Below, one piece after another: positions 1 through 3,872 of a DNA stretch of 5,680 nucleotides (position 1 is the first letter of the stretch; each line of letters opens with the position of its first letter). Source of the DNA: a virus (lineage: Duplodnaviria; Heunggongvirae; Uroviricota; Caudoviricetes); the IMG/VR virus record IMGVR_UViG_2703719354_000026; one strand, written 5' to 3'. The notes below the pieces were generated by a model that was not told where the DNA came from, ran no database searches, and saw only the letters and a list, made by a program, of their open reading frames with translations. The position numbers were made by a program, and so were the translations under genes.

Positions 1-1125
1 GTCAGCGTCGGTAAAAAGCTCCACCACGCGTAAGTCATATGCGGCTTCTTTGAGTTCCTCCGCGTCCTTCATTTTGGTGCATGAGATAACCAGCGCTTCG
101 CTTCCTGCGTCCTCCCTGCGTATCCGGTATTCAGCATCCAGCGAAGCACGAAATGCACTGGAACCGCGCGCGCCTTTCGTCTCATCCTTGCCGGAATGGT
201 GAACCACCAGCACCGTGGCCCCTGTGCGTCGTTTCAGTTCGTCACAACCACGGATAAACGCCCCCATATCACGGGAATCATTTTCATCATTCCCACCAAA
301 GCAACGCGCCAGCGTATCCAGAATAATCATGCGTACAGGTTTACCCGTTTCCCGCTCCACCTGACGGGCAGCGATAACCATTTCATCAACATCAAGCGGG
401 GCAGCCGGAAAGATGGGGCGGTTTACCAGATACAGATTTTTCACCTGCTCATCGTGCACAACCTCCCAGGCTTTTACACGACGCGGAACACCTATACCGC
501 CTTCACCGACCACATAGAGAACCGCACCATGCGCAACCCTGCGGCCTCCCCACTGGCGACCAGTGGCAACATGGCACGCCCACGATCCGGCAAGGAATGA
601 TTTATAGGACCCGCTAGCCCCGTATATGCTGCATAGCGATACCGCCGGAATAATCCCCTTAACCACGTAATCCAGTTGCGTGTCGTATCCGGTAGATCCA
701 ACGCTCATCGGTAGCGTGGTTTTTCGCTGGTGGTTTTTTTCTTCCGCCGGCTCTTTCCCACGCCCCCGTTCCAGGTATTCGCGCCAGTTCTCCCGCATAT
801 GGCTGTGCATCCCTTCGGGGTAATAATTCGCATCAGTTACACCCGCCGCCGCCAGCTTGTGCGCAATGGCATTAATATTTGATGGCCTGATGTGGCCTGC
901 CTTGTACAGCCGGACACAATAGCGCCCCTCGTCGATGATTCTCAGGTCTGCCAGTTCATCCAGTTGATCATCAGCCAGCACAACGGGAGGCACATTATCG
1001 CCAGCCAGTCGCCCGTCCTGTTCCTGCCACTGTTTCGCATGTGCCCAGGCATCACTACCCGCAAAAATAATGACTTCGGTCATCTTGTCGTAAGGCTGTT
1101 TTTTTAAGTTCGGTGCGCTTTTCAT
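1..1125 (-). CDS. Replication ATPase, RecA-like / AAA_25 (RepA/DnaB-like) family, possibly primase-helicase type; C-terminus beyond window (about 375 aa visible)
   Basis: Minus-strand frame open from ATG 1125..1123 to position 1 with no stop; I translated it codon by codon. AGGGG lies 6 nt upstream, and the start forms an ATGA overlap with the stop of the upstream ORF (1122..1124). An alternative in-frame ATG is at 1083. Motifs seen: deviant Walker A 'IYGASGSYKS' (about 598..633), Walker B 'RMIILDT' (about 313..333), and 'LVVHHSGKDETKGARGSS' (about 175..230), as in RepA-like RecA-fold ATPases. Absent from the supplied ORF track because its stop is outside the window. Confidence 0.85.
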   Translation of the reverse strand, partial: MKSAPNLKKQPYDKMTEVIIFAGSDAWAHAKQWQEQDGRLAGDNVPPVVLADDQLDELADLRIIDEGRYCVRLYKAGHIRPSNINAIAHKLAAAGVTDANYYPEGMHSHMRENWREYLERGRGKEPAEEKNHQRKTTLPMSVGSTGYDTQLDYVVKGIIPAVSLCSIYGASGSYKSFLAGSWACHVATGRQWGGRRVAHGAVLYVVGEGGIGVPRRVKAWEVVHDEQVKNLYLVNRPIFPAAPLDVDEMVIAARQVERETGKPVRMIILDTLARCFGGNDENDSRDMGAFIRGCDELKRRTGATVLVVHHSGKDETKGARGSSAFRASLDAEYRIRREDAGSEALVISCTKMKDAEELKEAAYDLRVVELFTDAD

Positions 1126-1883: not shown

Positions 1884-2101
1884 AACCCCCCCTCCCCATT
1901 TTCACAATCAGCAACAAGAATATTTTTAGCGTCATTCAGCGACCGCGTGGCGGTGTATCGGATACATTCCAGGGCGAACAATGTGTATTCCTCCCGTTCT
2001 TCCTTTTGTGCAAGCTCTGCCGTGCATTCAATATCAATAAGCGCGTGCATCAGCGTAGTGAGTGCGGCGGCGGCTGCGTCCGGTGTGGTTTTATTGCACA
2101 T
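1856..2101 (-). CDS. Hypothetical small acidic protein (81 aa from internal ATG; ORF track extends to 2158)
   Basis: In-frame ATG at 2101..2099 has GGAGGGG 6 nt upstream, whereas the track start at 2158 has no clear RBS. Overlaps the next ORF by 28 nt. N-terminal 'PDAAAAALTT' resembles 'PDDAADALSS' in ORF 1662..1883. Confidence 0.5.
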   Translation of the reverse strand: MCNKTTPDAAAAALTTLMHALIDIECTAELAQKEEREEYTLFALECIRYTATRSLNDAKNILVADCENGEGGLCVMIVLIP

Positions 2102-2324
2102 GGTGTACCCCTCCGCATTTTTTTTCGTTAGAAATAAGCGCTCTTCTTTCCTGTTCATCGCTCAGGAATACGCAGACCTCACCGCTAAGGCGTTTAAGTA
2201 AGCCGATGATTGCCCCTGATTCGCTGTCGGTCATCATGCCAGGGTAATCCTCTGCCAGTGCGCAAATAACTTCGATTTGGTGGGCGCGTTCTGCTGCCTG
2301 TTGTAGTGTGATTTCCTGACTCAT
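2091..2324 (-). CDS. Hypothetical small acidic protein (77 aa)
   Basis: ATG at 2324..2322 overlaps the stop of the upstream ORF (ATGA). AGGGGG lies about 8 nt upstream, inside the conserved 19-bp junction repeat. Confidence 0.55.
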   Translation of the reverse strand: MSQEITLQQAAERAHQIEVICALAEDYPGMMTDSESGAIIGLLKRLSGEVCVFLSDEQERRALISNEKKCGGVHHVQ

Positions 2325-2782
2325 AAGCCTACCCCCTGACGAATACGGGCGACAAAAATCAGATGTGCGTGCGGCAGCTGGGCGCGGGCTTCGCGTTCAG
2401 TGGCTGCGGTAACGGTGTAAATATCAATGCTGCTGTGGTGGCACTGCATAAAGCGCCAGACAAAGTAAGGGCGTGCGGATACAGCCATGTGAAAGGCTCC
2501 CAGATGAATTTTAAGGAGTCTCGCTACTACGCTGCTAAACATGGTGGCGAGACGTAACAGGGTTAGCAGACTGGTCATCTGGAAACCAGCGAGCACAAAG
2601 GCTCCCCCGTTACGCCCCGCCATAATGCGGGTATGGGTAGGTTTACGGACACAAAAAAACCGCTTATCGGATGTGGGCGGCTGTCCGCCAGATGTATTCA
2701 GGCTGCTAAACCCGGTCGCCATGTGGGCGACGGGGGAAGCATACAGCCCCGTGATAATTTTTTGCAAGCGGTTTTTACGCAT
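2321..2782 (-). CDS. Hypothetical protein (153 aa); the C-terminal 55 aa (from internal ATG at 2488) is a paralog of ORF 2775..2972 and may be translated separately
   Basis: ATG at 2782 with AGGGG about 8 nt upstream, overlapping the upstream ORF's stop by 8 nt. Internal ATG at 2488 has GGGAG 8 nt upstream. C-terminal domain carries 'FVWRF', 'TEREAR' and 'ARIRQG' motifs. The N-terminal part has a hydrophobic stretch ('AFVLAGFQMTSLLTLLRLATMFSSVVA'). The ORF-track version starts further upstream at 2824 (GTG). Confidence 0.45.
   Translation of the reverse strand: MRKNRLQKIITGLYASPVAHMATGFSSLNTSGGQPPTSDKRFFCVRKPTHTRIMAGRNGGAFVLAGFQMTSLLTLLRLATMFSSVVARLLKIHLGAFHMAVSARPYFVWRFMQCHHSSIDIYTVTAATEREARAQLPHAHLIFVARIRQGVGL
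2333..2351. repeat. Copy 1 of an exact 19-bp direct repeat (plus strand cccctgacgaatacgggcg) at a gene junction
   Basis: Identical 19-mer at 2333..2351 and 2790..2808. On the minus strand it encodes the C-terminal 'ARIRQG' of one protein and supplies the RBS of the next gene. Confidence 0.9.
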
Positions 2783-2972
2783 GATGTGACCCCTGACGAA
2801 TACGGGCGGCGAATACAGCAACACAACCGGACGGGCAACGGCTACGCGCTTCGCGTTCCCTCCAGGCGGTTACGTGGATGATTTGAGATTCTCCGGCACT
2901 CAGTGCCAGAAAACGCCACACAAAGGCCGTTTGTGTGTGTACAAGGTGTGGTATATGATTTACGGCAACCAT
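2775..2972 (-). CDS. Hypothetical small protein (65 aa), first gene of the coupled operon; paralog of the C-terminal domain of ORF 2321..2782
   Basis: ATG at 2972..2970 with AGGAG 5 nt upstream. The ORF-track start at 3074 would force coding through a GC hairpin and has no RBS. Motifs 'FVWRF', 'REREAR', 'ARIRQG' are shared with the paralog, and the differences in those motifs are synonymous. Confidence 0.55.
   Translation of the reverse strand: MVAVNHIPHLVHTQTAFVWRFLALSAGESQIIHVTAWREREARSRCPSGCVAVFAARIRQGSHHA
2790..2808. repeat. Copy 2 of the exact 19-bp direct repeat at a gene junction
   Basis: Same 19-mer as 2333..2351; flanking sequence is diverged. Confidence 0.9.
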
Positions 2973-3002
2973 AACGGCTCCTAGTTTACGTTGTTGGTTA
3001 GA

Positions 3003-3045
3003 AGCCCCGTTACTGCTCCTACAGTGCGGGGCTTTGCTTTTTGTG
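3003..3045 (+). terminator. Terminator-like hairpin with T tract in the divergent intergenic region (plus-strand orientation)
   Basis: Stem agccccg (3003..3009) pairs with cggggct (3027..3033), with inner actg/cagt pairs, followed by TTGCTTTTT. The reverse strand lacks a U tract. Confidence 0.35.
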
Positions 3046-3053
3046 TTGATTGT

Positions 3054-3098
3054 GTGTAATGTGTCATTACACATAAATACATTACATGAGGTGTAATT
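3054..3098. promoter_or_regulatory. Operator array: four TGTAAT-type half-sites in alternating orientation, overlapping candidate divergent promoters
   Basis: GTGTAATG (3054..3061) and CATTACAC (3065..3072) form a perfect 8+3+8 inverted repeat. CATTACAT (3080..3087) and GTGTAATT (3091..3098) form a second pair. Spacings are 11/15/11 bp. The array sits just upstream of the RHH gene start (GTG 3102) and overlaps its GAGG RBS. Confidence 0.55.
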
Positions 3099-3101
3099 AA
3101 C

Positions 3102-3281
3102 GTGTCAACACACAAAAACGAAAGGCGTGGTAATCCTCCGTTCCAGTTCCGTTTAGATCCTGACTTACGGGAAAAGATGGAAAAGGCACAACAACAGGAC
3201 GGCGATGATTCTCTTGCTGCCTGGATAAAGCGAATAATCCGCAAAGAATTACAGCAACGCGGCATAGAACCCAAAGGATAA
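3102..3281 (+). CDS. Arc/MetJ-type ribbon-helix-helix (RHH) DNA-binding protein, 59 aa, GTG start
   Basis: GTG at 3102 with GAGGTG 8-9 nt upstream; in-frame stop immediately upstream at 3087..3089. Translation 'VSTHKNERRGNPPFQFRLDPDLREKMEKAQQQDGDDSLAAWIKRIIRKELQQRGIEPKG' follows the Arc/Mnt/CopG pattern (N-terminal beta strand 'FQFRL', then two helices). Below the ORF-track length threshold, so not listed there. Confidence 0.75.
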   Translation: MSTHKNERRGNPPFQFRLDPDLREKMEKAQQQDGDDSLAAWIKRIIRKELQQRGIEPKG

Positions 3282-3524: not shown

Positions 3525-3600
3525 TGACAGATTTGCCAACCAGCCAAAAATGTGGCATCGTTGTCGATGCATAGTGTAATCAACATGTATATCATATTTT

Positions 3601-3627
3601 TGCGACCATCATAGGTCGCATTTTTTT
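3601..3627 (+). terminator. Rho-independent terminator of the RHH operon
   Basis: Perfect 7-bp stem tgcgacc (3601..3607) / ggtcgca (3614..3620), 6-nt loop, then seven T (3621..3627). On the minus strand the hairpin is followed by A-rich sequence, so it is plus-specific. Confidence 0.75.
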
Positions 3628-3664
3628 GCCTGTAATCCGGCAATTGTGGCGCTTCTTCACACAG

Positions 3665-3674
3665 TTGATATAAT
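3665..3674 (+). promoter_or_regulatory. Candidate extended -10 promoter (TGaTATAAT)
   Basis: Exact TATAAT at 3669..3674 preceded by TG at 3666..3667. No good -35, which is acceptable for extended -10 promoters. Confidence 0.3.
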
Positions 3675-3680
3675 TCCAAT

Positions 3681-3748
3681 GCTCATATTTATTTTTTGTG
3701 CAGCAGGTTAATCGTTCACAAAGGCGCTCAGGTAACTGGGCGCTTTTT
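3681..3748 (+). ncRNA. Candidate small RNA of about 68 nt (hypothetical; promoter-to-terminator unit without an ORF)
   Basis: Bounded by the extended -10 element at 3666..3674 and the hairpin + U-tract at 3723..3748. No ORF with an RBS in between. Confidence 0.25.
3723..3748 (+). terminator. Rho-independent terminator-like hairpin
   Basis: Stem ggcgctcag (3723..3731) / ctgggcgc (3736..3743) with one G-U pair, GTAA loop, then TTTTT (3744..3748). Confidence 0.5.
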
Positions 3749-3872
3749 GTTATGCCTGAAAAACCCCAATTTTGTTGTTTTTCAGTTTCACCAGGGCGAA
3801 CGAATCCCCGCCCACGTTCTGGCGTATATTCAATCTTCATGGTTATAGCTCTGTGTTCAGATGATTGATGTG

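What the first reader, a model, noticed from the sequence alone, without database searches (positions are those of the whole stretch)
2321..2972. Paralogous small proteins with FVWRF / EREAR / ARIRQG motifs at the head of the replication operon
Seen in sequence: the 65-aa ORF 2775..2972 and the C-terminal 55 aa of ORF 2321..2782 align over about 45 residues, at roughly 45 percent identity by eye. In the conserved motifs the DNA differences are synonymous (TTT GTC TGG CGC TTT versus TTT GTG TGG CGT TTT for FVWRF; GAA CGC GAA GCC CGC versus GAA CGC GAA GCG CGT for EREAR), which is the signature of purifying selection on real coding sequence. I do not recognise the family. The second copy is fused in-frame to a hydrophobic N-terminal extension but also has its own internal RBS and ATG at 2488. 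Inference: a duplicated small effector or regulator (for example helper-phage interference, anti-defence or replication control).
Basis: partly seen in the sequence, partly recalled or inferred. Interest (0 to 1): 0.65.

Follow-up and report, generated by a model that had tools for sequence, protein, structure and literature searches.

The report
Satellite RNA-immunity cassette with Icd genes

Summary
On the minus strand, ORF 2972..2775 (65 aa) and ORF 2488..2321 (55 aa) align at 22/45 identities (E 3e-10).

The family is known. Both pass NCBIfam NF033153, "host cell division inhibitor Icd-like protein", as do P1 Icd and P4 Kil.

Between the two genes lie the C4/CI antisense RNA (Rfam RF01695, 2627..2540, 72.7 bits) and its targets: a1/b1 upstream, and a2/b2 abutting the ribosome-binding site of the second gene. 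Across 25 sequence variants the RNA loops and both target sets co-vary, with 2 a alleles, 9 b alleles, and 7-8 bp of cognate pairing each time.

The 153-aa frame (2782..2321) reads through these RNA elements. Its amino-acid sequence is not conserved, but the frame stays open. This is the layout of P4 kil nested in eta, where translating eta from an upstream promoter overrides RNA immunity.

The window comes from a capsid-forming PICI satellite of E. coli. Relatives carry zero, one or two such cassettes, each followed by its own Icd gene.

Verdict: a new member of a known kind, of low interest. The useful by-products are an annotation correction (RefSeq calls the 153-aa frame a protein and omits the RNA) and the modular cassette pattern.

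The parts
3079..3108 (-). Putative upstream (induction) promoter: TTGACA (3108-3103), N18, TAATGT (3084-3079). Candidate analogue of P4 PLL.
   Evidence: Read from the sequence. It was not found by the consensus scan, so it is inference only.
3053..3073 (.). Perfect 9-bp inverted repeat TGTGTAATG-aca-CATTACACA at about +1 of the putative upstream promoter. Candidate operator.
   Evidence: Sequence. The binding protein is unknown.
2775..2972 (-). icd-1: 65-aa Icd/Kil-family ORF, first ORF of the operon. SD AGGAG (2982-2978) lies 5 nt before the ATG.
   Evidence: NF033153 at 60.2 bits against a cutoff of 25. pN/pS 0.46. 108 protein clusters, nearly all named Icd-like.
2321..2782 (-). eta-like long ORF (153 codons). 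Its ATG overlaps the icd-1 stop (ATGCGTAA). It reads through a1b1, the terminator hairpin, C4 and a2b2, and ends as icd-2.
   Evidence: ORF list. 0 stops in this frame against 5 and 7 in the other two; P(no stop) is 0.019 in shuffles. The amino-acid sequence is not conserved. Same layout as P4 eta/kil.
2738..2767 (-). Putative internal constitutive promoter: TTGCAA (2767-2762), N18, TATGCT (2743-2738), start near 2731. Positional equivalent of P4 PLE and of the IsrK promoter.
   Evidence: Sequence. The same -35/N18/-10/6 nt/start layout lies upstream of the isrK hits in L017-type loci and in P4. Conserved in relatives. Not tested experimentally.
2653..2744 (-). seqA/IsrK-like element. a1 (TTTAGCAG, 2710-2703) and b1 (ACATCTGG, 2695-2688) are targets or decoys for C4. 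They are followed by a hairpin and a T7 run (2682-2653).
   Evidence: Rfam c4-a1b1 at 45.5 bits (GA 46.7) and isrK at 36.8 bits (GA 50). a1/b1 co-vary with the C4 loops in 25 variants.
2540..2627 (-). C4/CI antisense immunity RNA. b' loop CCAGAUGA (2582-2575); a' single strand CUGCUAA (2569-2563).
   Evidence: RF01695 at 72.7 bits (GA 45), E 2.7e-13. MFE -47 kcal/mol, z -5.96. 13 of 25 pairs have compensatory changes in 10 diverse homologues.
2497..2539 (-). Operative target region: a2 (TTTAGCAG, 2539-2532) and b2 (TCATCTGG, 2507-2500). b2 overlaps the SD GGGAG (2501-2497) of icd-2.
   Evidence: Aligns with the annotated a2/b2 of P1. Cognate pairing of 7-8 bp is kept in all 25 variants.
2321..2488 (-). 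icd-2: 55-aa Icd/Kil-family ORF, positional equivalent of P1 icd and P4 kil. Its stop overlaps the next ATG (ATGA at 2324-2321).
   Evidence: NF033153 at 55.2 bits. Start and SD invariant. pN/pS 0.34.
2091..2324 (-). First downstream ORF (77 aa, phrog_1478, function unknown), translationally coupled to icd-2. It is followed by small ORFs, DUF4222 and the RepA-type helicase (1..1125).

Best explanation
Region 2321-3108 (minus strand) is the immunity and leader region of the early (replication) operon of an E. coli capsid-forming PICI satellite. It is built like P4 PLL/PLE-seqA-cI-seqC-kil/eta and P1 immI (a1b1-c4-a2b2-icd).

Shown here:
- There are two Icd/Kil-family ORFs.
- Between them lie a C4/CI RNA gene and two sets of complementary target sites.
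- b2 abuts the ribosome-binding site of icd-2.
- A long frame starts at the icd-1 stop codon and reads through all the RNA elements into icd-2.
- icd-2 overlaps the next gene (ATGA).

Inferred by homology with P4 and P1:
1. In the resting island, an internal constitutive promoter (about 2767-2738) makes a short a1b1 RNA. By read-through it also makes the precursor of C4.
2. C4 pairs with a2/b2 and blocks icd-2 translation. The untranslated icd-2 RNA then allows Rho-dependent termination, as at P4 timm, which lies inside kil. The replication genes and the toxic Icd protein stay off.
3. On induction, transcription from the upstream promoter (about 3108-3079, with a palindromic operator) is translated from icd-1. 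Ribosomes re-initiate at ATG 2782 and translate the eta-like frame across the terminator hairpin, C4 and a2/b2.
4. That translation makes the transcript insensitive to C4 and carries RNA polymerase into the replication operon.

The Icd-like proteins themselves probably arrest host division. P1 Icd inhibits division and P4 Kil kills cells.

The upstream copy, icd-1, is the conserved first ORF of this kind of operon. The C4 cassette with its own icd-2 is an optional module.
For: Protein family:
- NF033153 hits are icd-1 60.2 bits, icd-2 55.2, P1 Icd 52.6 and P4 Kil 76.1, against a cutoff of 25.

RNA elements:
- Rfam C4 scores 72.7 bits in the window and 74.9 in P4, where it lies inside the eta frame. 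P4 also has isrK/seqA upstream (60.8 bits).
- The window's a1b1-C4-a2b2 region aligns to P1 immI at 79% column identity. The differences are concentrated in the annotated a/b elements.
- In 25 distinct variants, a1/a'/a2 (2 alleles) and b1/b'/b2 (9 cores) always co-vary. Cognate pairing is 7-8 bp; non-cognate pairing averages 3.8.
- C4 folds with z -5.96. 13 of 25 pairs show compensatory changes.

The long frame:
- It is open with 0 stops against 5 and 7 in the other frames (P 0.019).
- The same holds for P4 eta (0/3/6, P 0.0046) and for the second cassette of L017-type loci (0/5/11, P 0.022).
- Its amino-acid sequence is free to change.

Literature:
- PMC10111431 summarises Forti et al. [quoted passage not shown]
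- The same paper notes that Rfam C4 and isrK hit several Gram-negative PICIs.
- P4 timm is X51522 8365-8209, inside kil.

Context:
- The window holds int, AlpA and a RepA helicase. A 98%-identical locus also carries capsid and terminase genes.
Against: - No promoter, terminator, RNA processing, coupling or toxicity was measured here.
- The consensus scan found no sigma-70 promoter. Both promoters are read by eye and by positional homology.
- The c4-a1b1 hit is 1.2 bits under Rfam's gathering score, and the isrK hit is well under it.
- The open-frame statistic is modest. The three cassettes are homologous, so their P values are not independent.
- One relative (L011) has the frame closed by a 1-nt change in the T run. 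P1-type phages lack the long frame.
- In P4 the gene coupled to eta is the alpA homologue. Here it is icd-1, and alpA lies about 900 nt upstream beyond two oppositely oriented genes.
- Related cf-PICIs and PICIs run the same operon with an Icd-like ORF and no C4. The cassette is therefore dispensable.
Confidence: 0.8

Rival explanations
1. Only the 55-aa icd-2 is made. The long frame 2782..2489 is open by chance or as a by-product of RNA-level conservation. It is never translated and has no role.
For: - The first 98 codons show no coding signature (24/28/18 variable columns).
- The amino-acid sequence is scrambled by -1/+1 indels in L006, L008, L010 and L031.
- P1, L043 and L048 have stops 4-11 codons upstream of icd. 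L011 has the frame closed at 58 codons.
- P(no stop) of 0.019 is not extreme.
Against: - The frame stays open even in the frame-shifted variants.
- It is open in three diverged cassette lineages, including P4 eta, whose translation is reported to be functional.
- Its ATG always overlaps the end of the upstream gene.
- In Gifsy-1, orf45, which covers the processed ~80-nt RNA downstream of IsrK (the position C4 occupies here), was shown to be translated and coupled to the next gene (PMC4825925).
Confidence: 0.25
2. One reading: two paralogous effector proteins of an unknown family, the second carrying a genuine hydrophobic N-terminal domain. They would act in helper interference or anti-defence.
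For: The paralogy and the protein-level selection on the 45-residue core are real. The proteins have no Pfam domain and no solved relative.
Against: - The family is named and includes P1 Icd and P4 Kil.
- The extension coincides with RNA genes and has no conserved protein sequence.
- No defence or anti-defence evidence was found. The PADLOC library was not searched, so that specific negative is untested.
Confidence: 0.04
3. icd-1 is a functionless remnant left when an upstream C4 cassette was deleted by recombination between tandem icd copies.
For: - Relatives (L009, L010, L017, L021, L031, L032) carry a truncated icd with the window's N-terminus. It is followed by a second isrK-C4 cassette and then an icd with the window's C-terminus.
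- The window's icd-1 therefore looks like a recombinant of the two.
Against: - icd-1 is intact, has a strong SD, and has pN/pS 0.46 with third-position excess.
- An O157-type cf-PICI at the same chromosomal site keeps only this copy, with the same leader, as the first ORF of the operon.
- Its stop is coupled to the next start in both contexts.
Confidence: 0.1

Closest known systems
Satellite phage P4 immunity region (PLL/PLE, seqA, CI RNA, seqC, timm, nested kil/eta genes; Forti et al. 1999, as summarised in PMC10111431)
   Same: - The order is the same: promoter, seqA/IsrK-like element with hairpin and T run, C4-family RNA, second target at the RBS, Icd-family small ORF.
- The small ORF is the 3' end of a long frame. 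That frame starts upstream of the internal promoter and overlaps the end of the preceding gene.
- Replication genes lie downstream.
- P4 Kil scores 76.1 bits on NF033153, and P4 CI scores 74.9 bits on RF01695.
   Different: - The gene coupled to the long frame is a second Icd-like ORF rather than the alpA/vis homologue.
- The cassette sequence is closer to P1 than to P4 (79% column identity to P1).
- The replication protein is a RepA-type AAA_25 helicase, not the P4 alpha primase.
- The element is a cf-PICI, not a P4-like satellite.
Phage P1/P7 immI operon (a1 b1 - c4 - a2 b2 - icd - ant1/2)
   Same: - The a1b1-C4-a2b2 block is colinear, with similar spacings.
- b2 lies about 10 nt from the icd start.
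- icd overlaps the next gene.
- Specificity differences sit in the a and b elements, as between the heteroimmune phages P1 and P7.
   Different: - There is no antirepressor downstream. A replication operon follows instead.
- P1 has no ORF upstream of a1b1 and no long frame through c4.
- The window has an extra Icd copy upstream.
Salmonella Gifsy-1 isrK-orf45-anrP locus (PMC4825925)
   Same: - A seqA-like RNA that ends at a terminator is followed by a processed ~80-nt RNA, in the position C4 occupies here.
- An ORF reads across that RNA. It is translated and is coupled by AUGA to the next gene.
   Different: - The authors do not describe an icd-type gene in the Gifsy-1 locus.
- The short RNA acts there as an activator in trans.
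- The window's own isrK score is below threshold (36.8 against 50). The upstream cassettes of relatives pass it (62-66 bits).

Membership tests
NCBIfam NF033153 phage_ICD_like (Icd/Kil small proteins) | Profile score above the curated cutoff (25 bits) over the 48-position domain | tested here: met
   icd-1 scores 60.2 bits and icd-2 55.2 bits, both full-length on the profile. The reference proteins P1 Icd (52.6) and P4 Kil (76.1) hit the same model.
NCBIfam NF033153 phage_ICD_like (Icd/Kil small proteins) | Inhibition of host cell division or cell killing when expressed | not testable with these tools
Rfam RF01695 C4 antisense RNA (P1 c4, P4 CI) | Covariance-model score above gathering (45 bits), with the consensus structure | tested here: met
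   72.7 bits, E 2.7e-13, model positions 1-87 of 87. z -5.96. 13 of 25 pairs have compensatory changes among 10 homologues.
Rfam RF01695 C4 antisense RNA (P1 c4, P4 CI) | Two single-stranded elements complementary to target pairs upstream and downstream on the same transcript, the downstream pair lying at the RBS of the next ORF | tested here: met
   a' pairs with a1/a2 over 7 bp and b' with b1/b2 over 7-8 bp. b2 overlaps the SD. Triple co-variation holds in 25 variants.
Rfam RF01695 C4 antisense RNA (P1 c4, P4 CI) | Processing from the operon transcript (RNase P) and repression in trans | not testable with these tools
   Experimental. Only the literature for P1 and P4 bears on it.
Rfam RF03163 c4-a1b1 / RF01394 isrK (seqA-like element) | Score above gathering (46.7 and 50 bits) | tested here: inconclusive
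   The window scores 45.5 and 36.8 bits, both below gathering. The same element passes c4-a1b1 at 46.8-48.5 in four of six sibling loci. The upstream cassettes of relatives pass isrK at 62-66.
P4 kil/eta nested-gene anti-termination device | The small Icd-family ORF is the 3' end of a long ORF that reads through the RNA immunity gene and starts upstream of the internal promoter | tested here: met
   Frame 2782..2321 contains C4, a1b1 and a2b2 and ends as icd-2. The P4 frame 8812..8168 does the same. The internal promoter is only predicted.
P4 kil/eta nested-gene anti-termination device | Translation of the long ORF from an upstream promoter prevents termination and bypasses immunity | not testable with these tools
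   Indirect support only. The frame is kept open without a conserved peptide, and its start overlaps the upstream stop.
P1 immI operon | icd is followed by, and coupled to, the antirepressor genes ant1/ant2 | tested here: not met
   The downstream gene is a 77-aa protein of unknown function (phrog_1478, no Pfam hit), followed by replication genes. Only the ATGA coupling is shared.
Capsid-forming PICI (cf-PICI) | int, alpA and a replication module plus its own capsid, portal, protease, connector and terminase genes | tested here: met
   The window holds int, AlpA (PF05930) and an AAA_25 helicase. The 98%-identical E. coli E110019 locus continues into MCP, protease, portal, head closure, connector, HNH, TerS and TerL.

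The most novel reading that the evidence does not exclude
Icd-like ORFs may serve as conserved recombination joints. Through them, whole RNA-immunity cassettes (seqA/IsrK - C4 - target - icd) would be gained, lost, stacked and shuffled among Enterobacterial satellites.

What was seen here:
- Loci with zero, one or two cassettes in tandem.
- Hybrid icd-1/icd-2 proteins in PICIs that lack C4.
- 2 a alleles and at least 9 b alleles in many combinations.

This would amount to a combinatorial heteroimmunity code among competing satellites and P1-like phages, with stacked cassettes acting as a double lock.
Probability: 0.4. Interest if true: 0.45.

Novelty: new member of a known kind. Interest (0 to 1): 0.25.

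Why it matters
The main value is practical. In the RefSeq record examined, the 153-aa frame is annotated as an Icd-like protein and no C4 RNA is annotated. The P4 reference record still calls the equivalent frame "cI gene product, transcriptional repressor". PHROGs 1743 and 6196, which both ORFs hit, carry the same "transcriptional repressor" label. Re-annotating these loci as RNA immunity cassettes would be more accurate.

Biologically, the locus shows that a capsid-forming PICI can carry a P4/P1-type antisense-RNA lock on its replication operon. This sits alongside the AlpA-dependent induction described for these islands. The founding cf-PICI paper does not discuss such a lock. A 2023 survey did note C4/isrK hits in Gram-negative PICIs.

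The variety of co-varying specificity alleles suggests that co-resident elements could differ in immunity, which would be testable.

Tried and rejected
- Pfam gave no hit for either ORF.
- tblastn of icd-1 against 50,697 phage records found one cf-PICI-like record and neither P1 nor P4. The proteins are too short and diverged for BLAST.
- Long open frames (220-490 aa) ending in an Icd domain in many loci were considered as possible fusion proteins. They were rejected: the sequences look like low-complexity translations, and in part they run antisense to other genes.
- My first conclusion was that the 153-aa frame is simply spurious. I revised it after finding the P4 kil/eta precedent and the retained open frame.
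- I expected the prototype-like O157 cf-PICI to carry C4. It does not.
- Forti et al. 1999 itself is not held in the paper library. Its content is cited through PMC10111431 and my own recollection.

Full report
**Observation**

All features discussed lie on the minus strand. ORF 2972..2775 (65 aa, called icd-1 here) and the last 55 codons of ORF 2782..2321 (icd-2, ATG at 2488) align at 22 of 45 positions, E 3e-10. The ATG at 2488 has its own Shine-Dalgarno sequence (GGGAG, 2501-2497).

**Family**

- Neither ORF hits Pfam.
- Both pass NCBIfam NF033153, "host cell division inhibitor Icd-like protein", at 60.2 and 55.2 bits against a cutoff of 25.
- Phage P1 Icd hits the same model at 52.6 bits. 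The 65-aa Kil of satellite phage P4 hits it at 76.1 bits.
- A database search with icd-1 returned 108 protein clusters from E. coli, Shigella and E. fergusonii. Nearly all are already named Icd-like.
- RefSeq annotates both ORFs of a 98%-identical E. coli locus with that name.

The family is therefore known.

**What lies between the two genes**

An Rfam scan of the window found three elements:

| Element | Rfam family | Coordinates (minus strand) | Score | Gathering score |
|---|---|---|---|---|
| C4 antisense RNA | RF01695 | 2627..2540 | 72.7 bits, E 2.7e-13 | 45 |
| a1/b1 target motif | RF03163 | 2744..2695 | 45.5 bits | 46.7 |
| IsrK-like hairpin plus U-run | RF01394 | 2731..2653 | 36.8 bits | 50 |

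The C4 RNA folds at -47 kcal/mol, z -5.96. In ten diverse homologues, 13 of 25 predicted pairs show compensatory changes.

The stretch 2760..2480 aligns with the annotated P1 immI region (a1, b1, c4, a2, b2, icd) at 79% column identity. The differences fall in the elements that P1 workers defined as the interaction sites. In the window:

- C4 loop CCAGAUGA (2582-2575) is complementary to b1 (2695-2688) and to b2 (2507-2500). b2 overlaps the ribosome-binding site of icd-2.
- C4 single strand CUGCUAA (2569-2563) is complementary to a1 (2710-2703) and a2 (2539-2532).

**Comparative test**

A scan of viral contigs with icd-2 gave 45 loci.

- 28 loci (L005-L032) carry the window-type cassette. All but L007, whose contig ends just upstream, have an Icd-like domain on each side of C4.
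- Among 25 distinct cassette sequences (P1 and P1-like contigs included), the a element has 2 alleles and the b element has 9 cores.
- In every case the allele in the RNA and in both target sets changes together. Cognate pairing stays at 7-8 bp, while non-cognate b'/b2 pairing averages 3.8.

This is strong evidence that selection acts on the RNA interaction. It also shows that these elements differ in immunity specificity, as the heteroimmune phages P1 and P7 do.

**The 153-aa frame**

Its first 98 codons are the a1b1, hairpin, C4 and a2b2 sequences.

Against a protein domain:
- Variable alignment columns are spread 24/28/18 over codon positions. In icd-2 and icd-1 they are 15/14/26 and 19/20/37, with pN/pS of 0.34 and 0.46.
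- In L006, L008, L010 and L031, a -1 and a +1 indel put about 38 codons into another frame. Nearly identical DNA then yields an unrelated peptide.

So there is no conserved "hydrophobic N-terminal domain".

For a frame that is kept open:
- It remains open in those frame-shifted variants.
- In the window it has 0 stops against 5 and 7 in the other two frames. The probability of no stop in shuffles is 0.019.
- Its ATG (2782) overlaps the icd-1 stop as ATGCGTAA.

This is the architecture of P4. There the frame 8812..8168 (eta) reads through the seqA/IsrK-like element (8692..8615, 60.8 bits) and the CI RNA (8507..8420, 74.9 bits), and ends as kil. It also has 0 stops against 3 and 6, P 0.0046.

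PMC10111431 summarises Forti et al. 1999 as follows:
- A constitutive promoter inside eta gives a transcript that terminates early through the CI and seqA interactions and is processed into CI.
- Kil, the truncated form of Eta, kills cells.
- Full-length Eta is translated only from an upstream promoter and is coupled to the upstream gene.
- Eta translation prevents termination.

The Rho-dependent terminator timm is at X51522 8365-8209, which is inside kil.

A candidate internal promoter in the window is TTGCAA-N18-TATGCT (2767-2738), with a start near 2731. It occupies the same position as the promoters upstream of the isrK hits in relatives and in P4. It is a prediction only; the consensus scan found none.

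**Mechanism**

Inferred by homology with P4 and P1:

- At rest, the internal promoter supplies C4. C4 blocks icd-2 translation at a2/b2. Transcription then terminates, and the replication genes (small ORFs, DUF4222, RepA-type helicase) stay silent.
- On induction, the upstream promoter fires. It lies at about 3108-3079 and has a perfect 9-bp inverted repeat at 3073-3053.
- icd-1 is translated. Ribosomes re-initiate at 2782 and translate across the RNA elements. The transcript thereby escapes C4 control.
- icd-2 is coupled by ATGA to the next gene (2324).
- The Icd proteins presumably arrest host division.

**Why two copies**

- In L009, L010, L017, L021, L031 and L032 there are two complete cassettes in tandem. 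The order is: a truncated icd with the window's N-terminus; isrK (62-66 bits); a P4-like C4 (75-79 bits); an icd with the window's C-terminus; c4-a1b1; C4; icd-2.
- An O157-type cf-PICI at the same roxA/pepT site has only the icd-1-type ORF, with the same leader and no C4.
- Hybrid proteins with an icd-1 front and an icd-2 back exist. One of them sits in a classical PICI without C4.
- Other Icd-bearing loci also lack C4.

So icd-1 is the conserved first ORF of the operon. The C4 cassette with its own icd is an optional, stackable module, apparently exchanged by recombination within icd.

**Context and novelty**

The window is part of a capsid-forming PICI. It holds int, AlpA and a helicase, and the near-identical locus continues into capsid, portal and terminase genes.

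- The founding cf-PICI paper does not mention an RNA repressor or icd.
- A 2023 survey did note that Rfam C4 and isrK hit several Gram-negative PICIs.
- A 2026 survey found Icd-like proteins in most Enterobacter satellites.

The finding is thus a new member of a known kind. The residual points of interest are the annotation error, the extra upstream Icd copy taking the place of P4's alpA homologue as coupling partner, and the 0/1/2-cassette modularity.

Noticed in passing
L009, L010, L017, L021, L031, L032 (e.g. L017:2591-3605): Two complete RNA-immunity cassettes lie in tandem: isrK (62-66 bits), a P4-like C4 (75-79 bits), icd, c4-a1b1, a P1-like C4, icd. Each has its own co-varying target alleles. 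The frame from the first truncated icd through the first cassette into the next icd is also open (185 codons; 0 stops against 5 and 11 in the other frames).
   Followed up: partly
Proteins P0061, P0070, P0072, P0077, P0088; loci L052/L053:3001-3189: These are hybrid Icd proteins with an icd-1-type N-terminal half and an icd-2-type C-terminal half, joined at the EREAR motif. P0070 heads the operon of a classical PICI (int, AlpA, D5_N/DUF5906 primase) with no C4. This is what a deletion of the cassette by recombination between the two copies would leave.
   Followed up: partly
L001:9042-9503 (RefSeq WP_001230912.1); L050:8168-8584 (P4 NP_042040.1); PHROGs 1743 and 6196: Legacy or automatic annotation treats the frame through the C4/CI RNA as a protein. 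In E. coli it is a 153-aa "Icd-like protein"; in P4 it is "cI gene product, transcriptional repressor". The PHROG families hit by the Icd ORFs carry the label "transcriptional repressor". No ncRNA feature is annotated at the C4 site in the E. coli record.
   Followed up: yes
window 3053-3108: A perfect inverted repeat TGTGTAATG-aca-CATTACACA lies at 3073-3053. Further TGTAAT/ATTACA half-sites lie between the minus-strand icd-1 leader and the plus-strand gene 3102..3281 (Arc-like by PHROG 228). The O157-type relative has a different palindrome (GGTAATTACC) in the same place. These look like exchangeable operator/regulator pairs.
   Followed up: no
window 3003-3045: The hairpin AGCCCCG...CGGGGCT is followed on the plus strand by TTTGCTTTTT, which is terminator-like for plus-strand (antisense) transcription. 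On the minus strand it sits in the icd-1 5' UTR without a U-run.
   Followed up: no
L024:3183-3572: icd-2 is fused in frame to the next gene, giving one 130-aa ORF in place of the two coupled genes.
   Followed up: no
L011:2808-3120: A 1-nt shorter T-run after a1b1 closes the long eta-like frame at 58 codons. This could be a real loss or a homopolymer sequencing error.
   Followed up: no
L040:1269-1333: The Rfam int-alpA RNA motif (RF02996, 57.8 bits) occurs in a locus that has an Icd-like ORF but no C4. It was not found in the window.
   Followed up: no
window 3592-3840 (minus strand) and 3696-3750 (plus strand): An 82-aa ORF (MKIEYTPERGRGFVRPGETEKQQNWGF...) recurs in relatives between alpA and the divergent small genes. 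It has no family hit. A terminator-like hairpin on the plus strand (weak sau-6072 hit, 24.3 bits) lies inside it.
   Followed up: no
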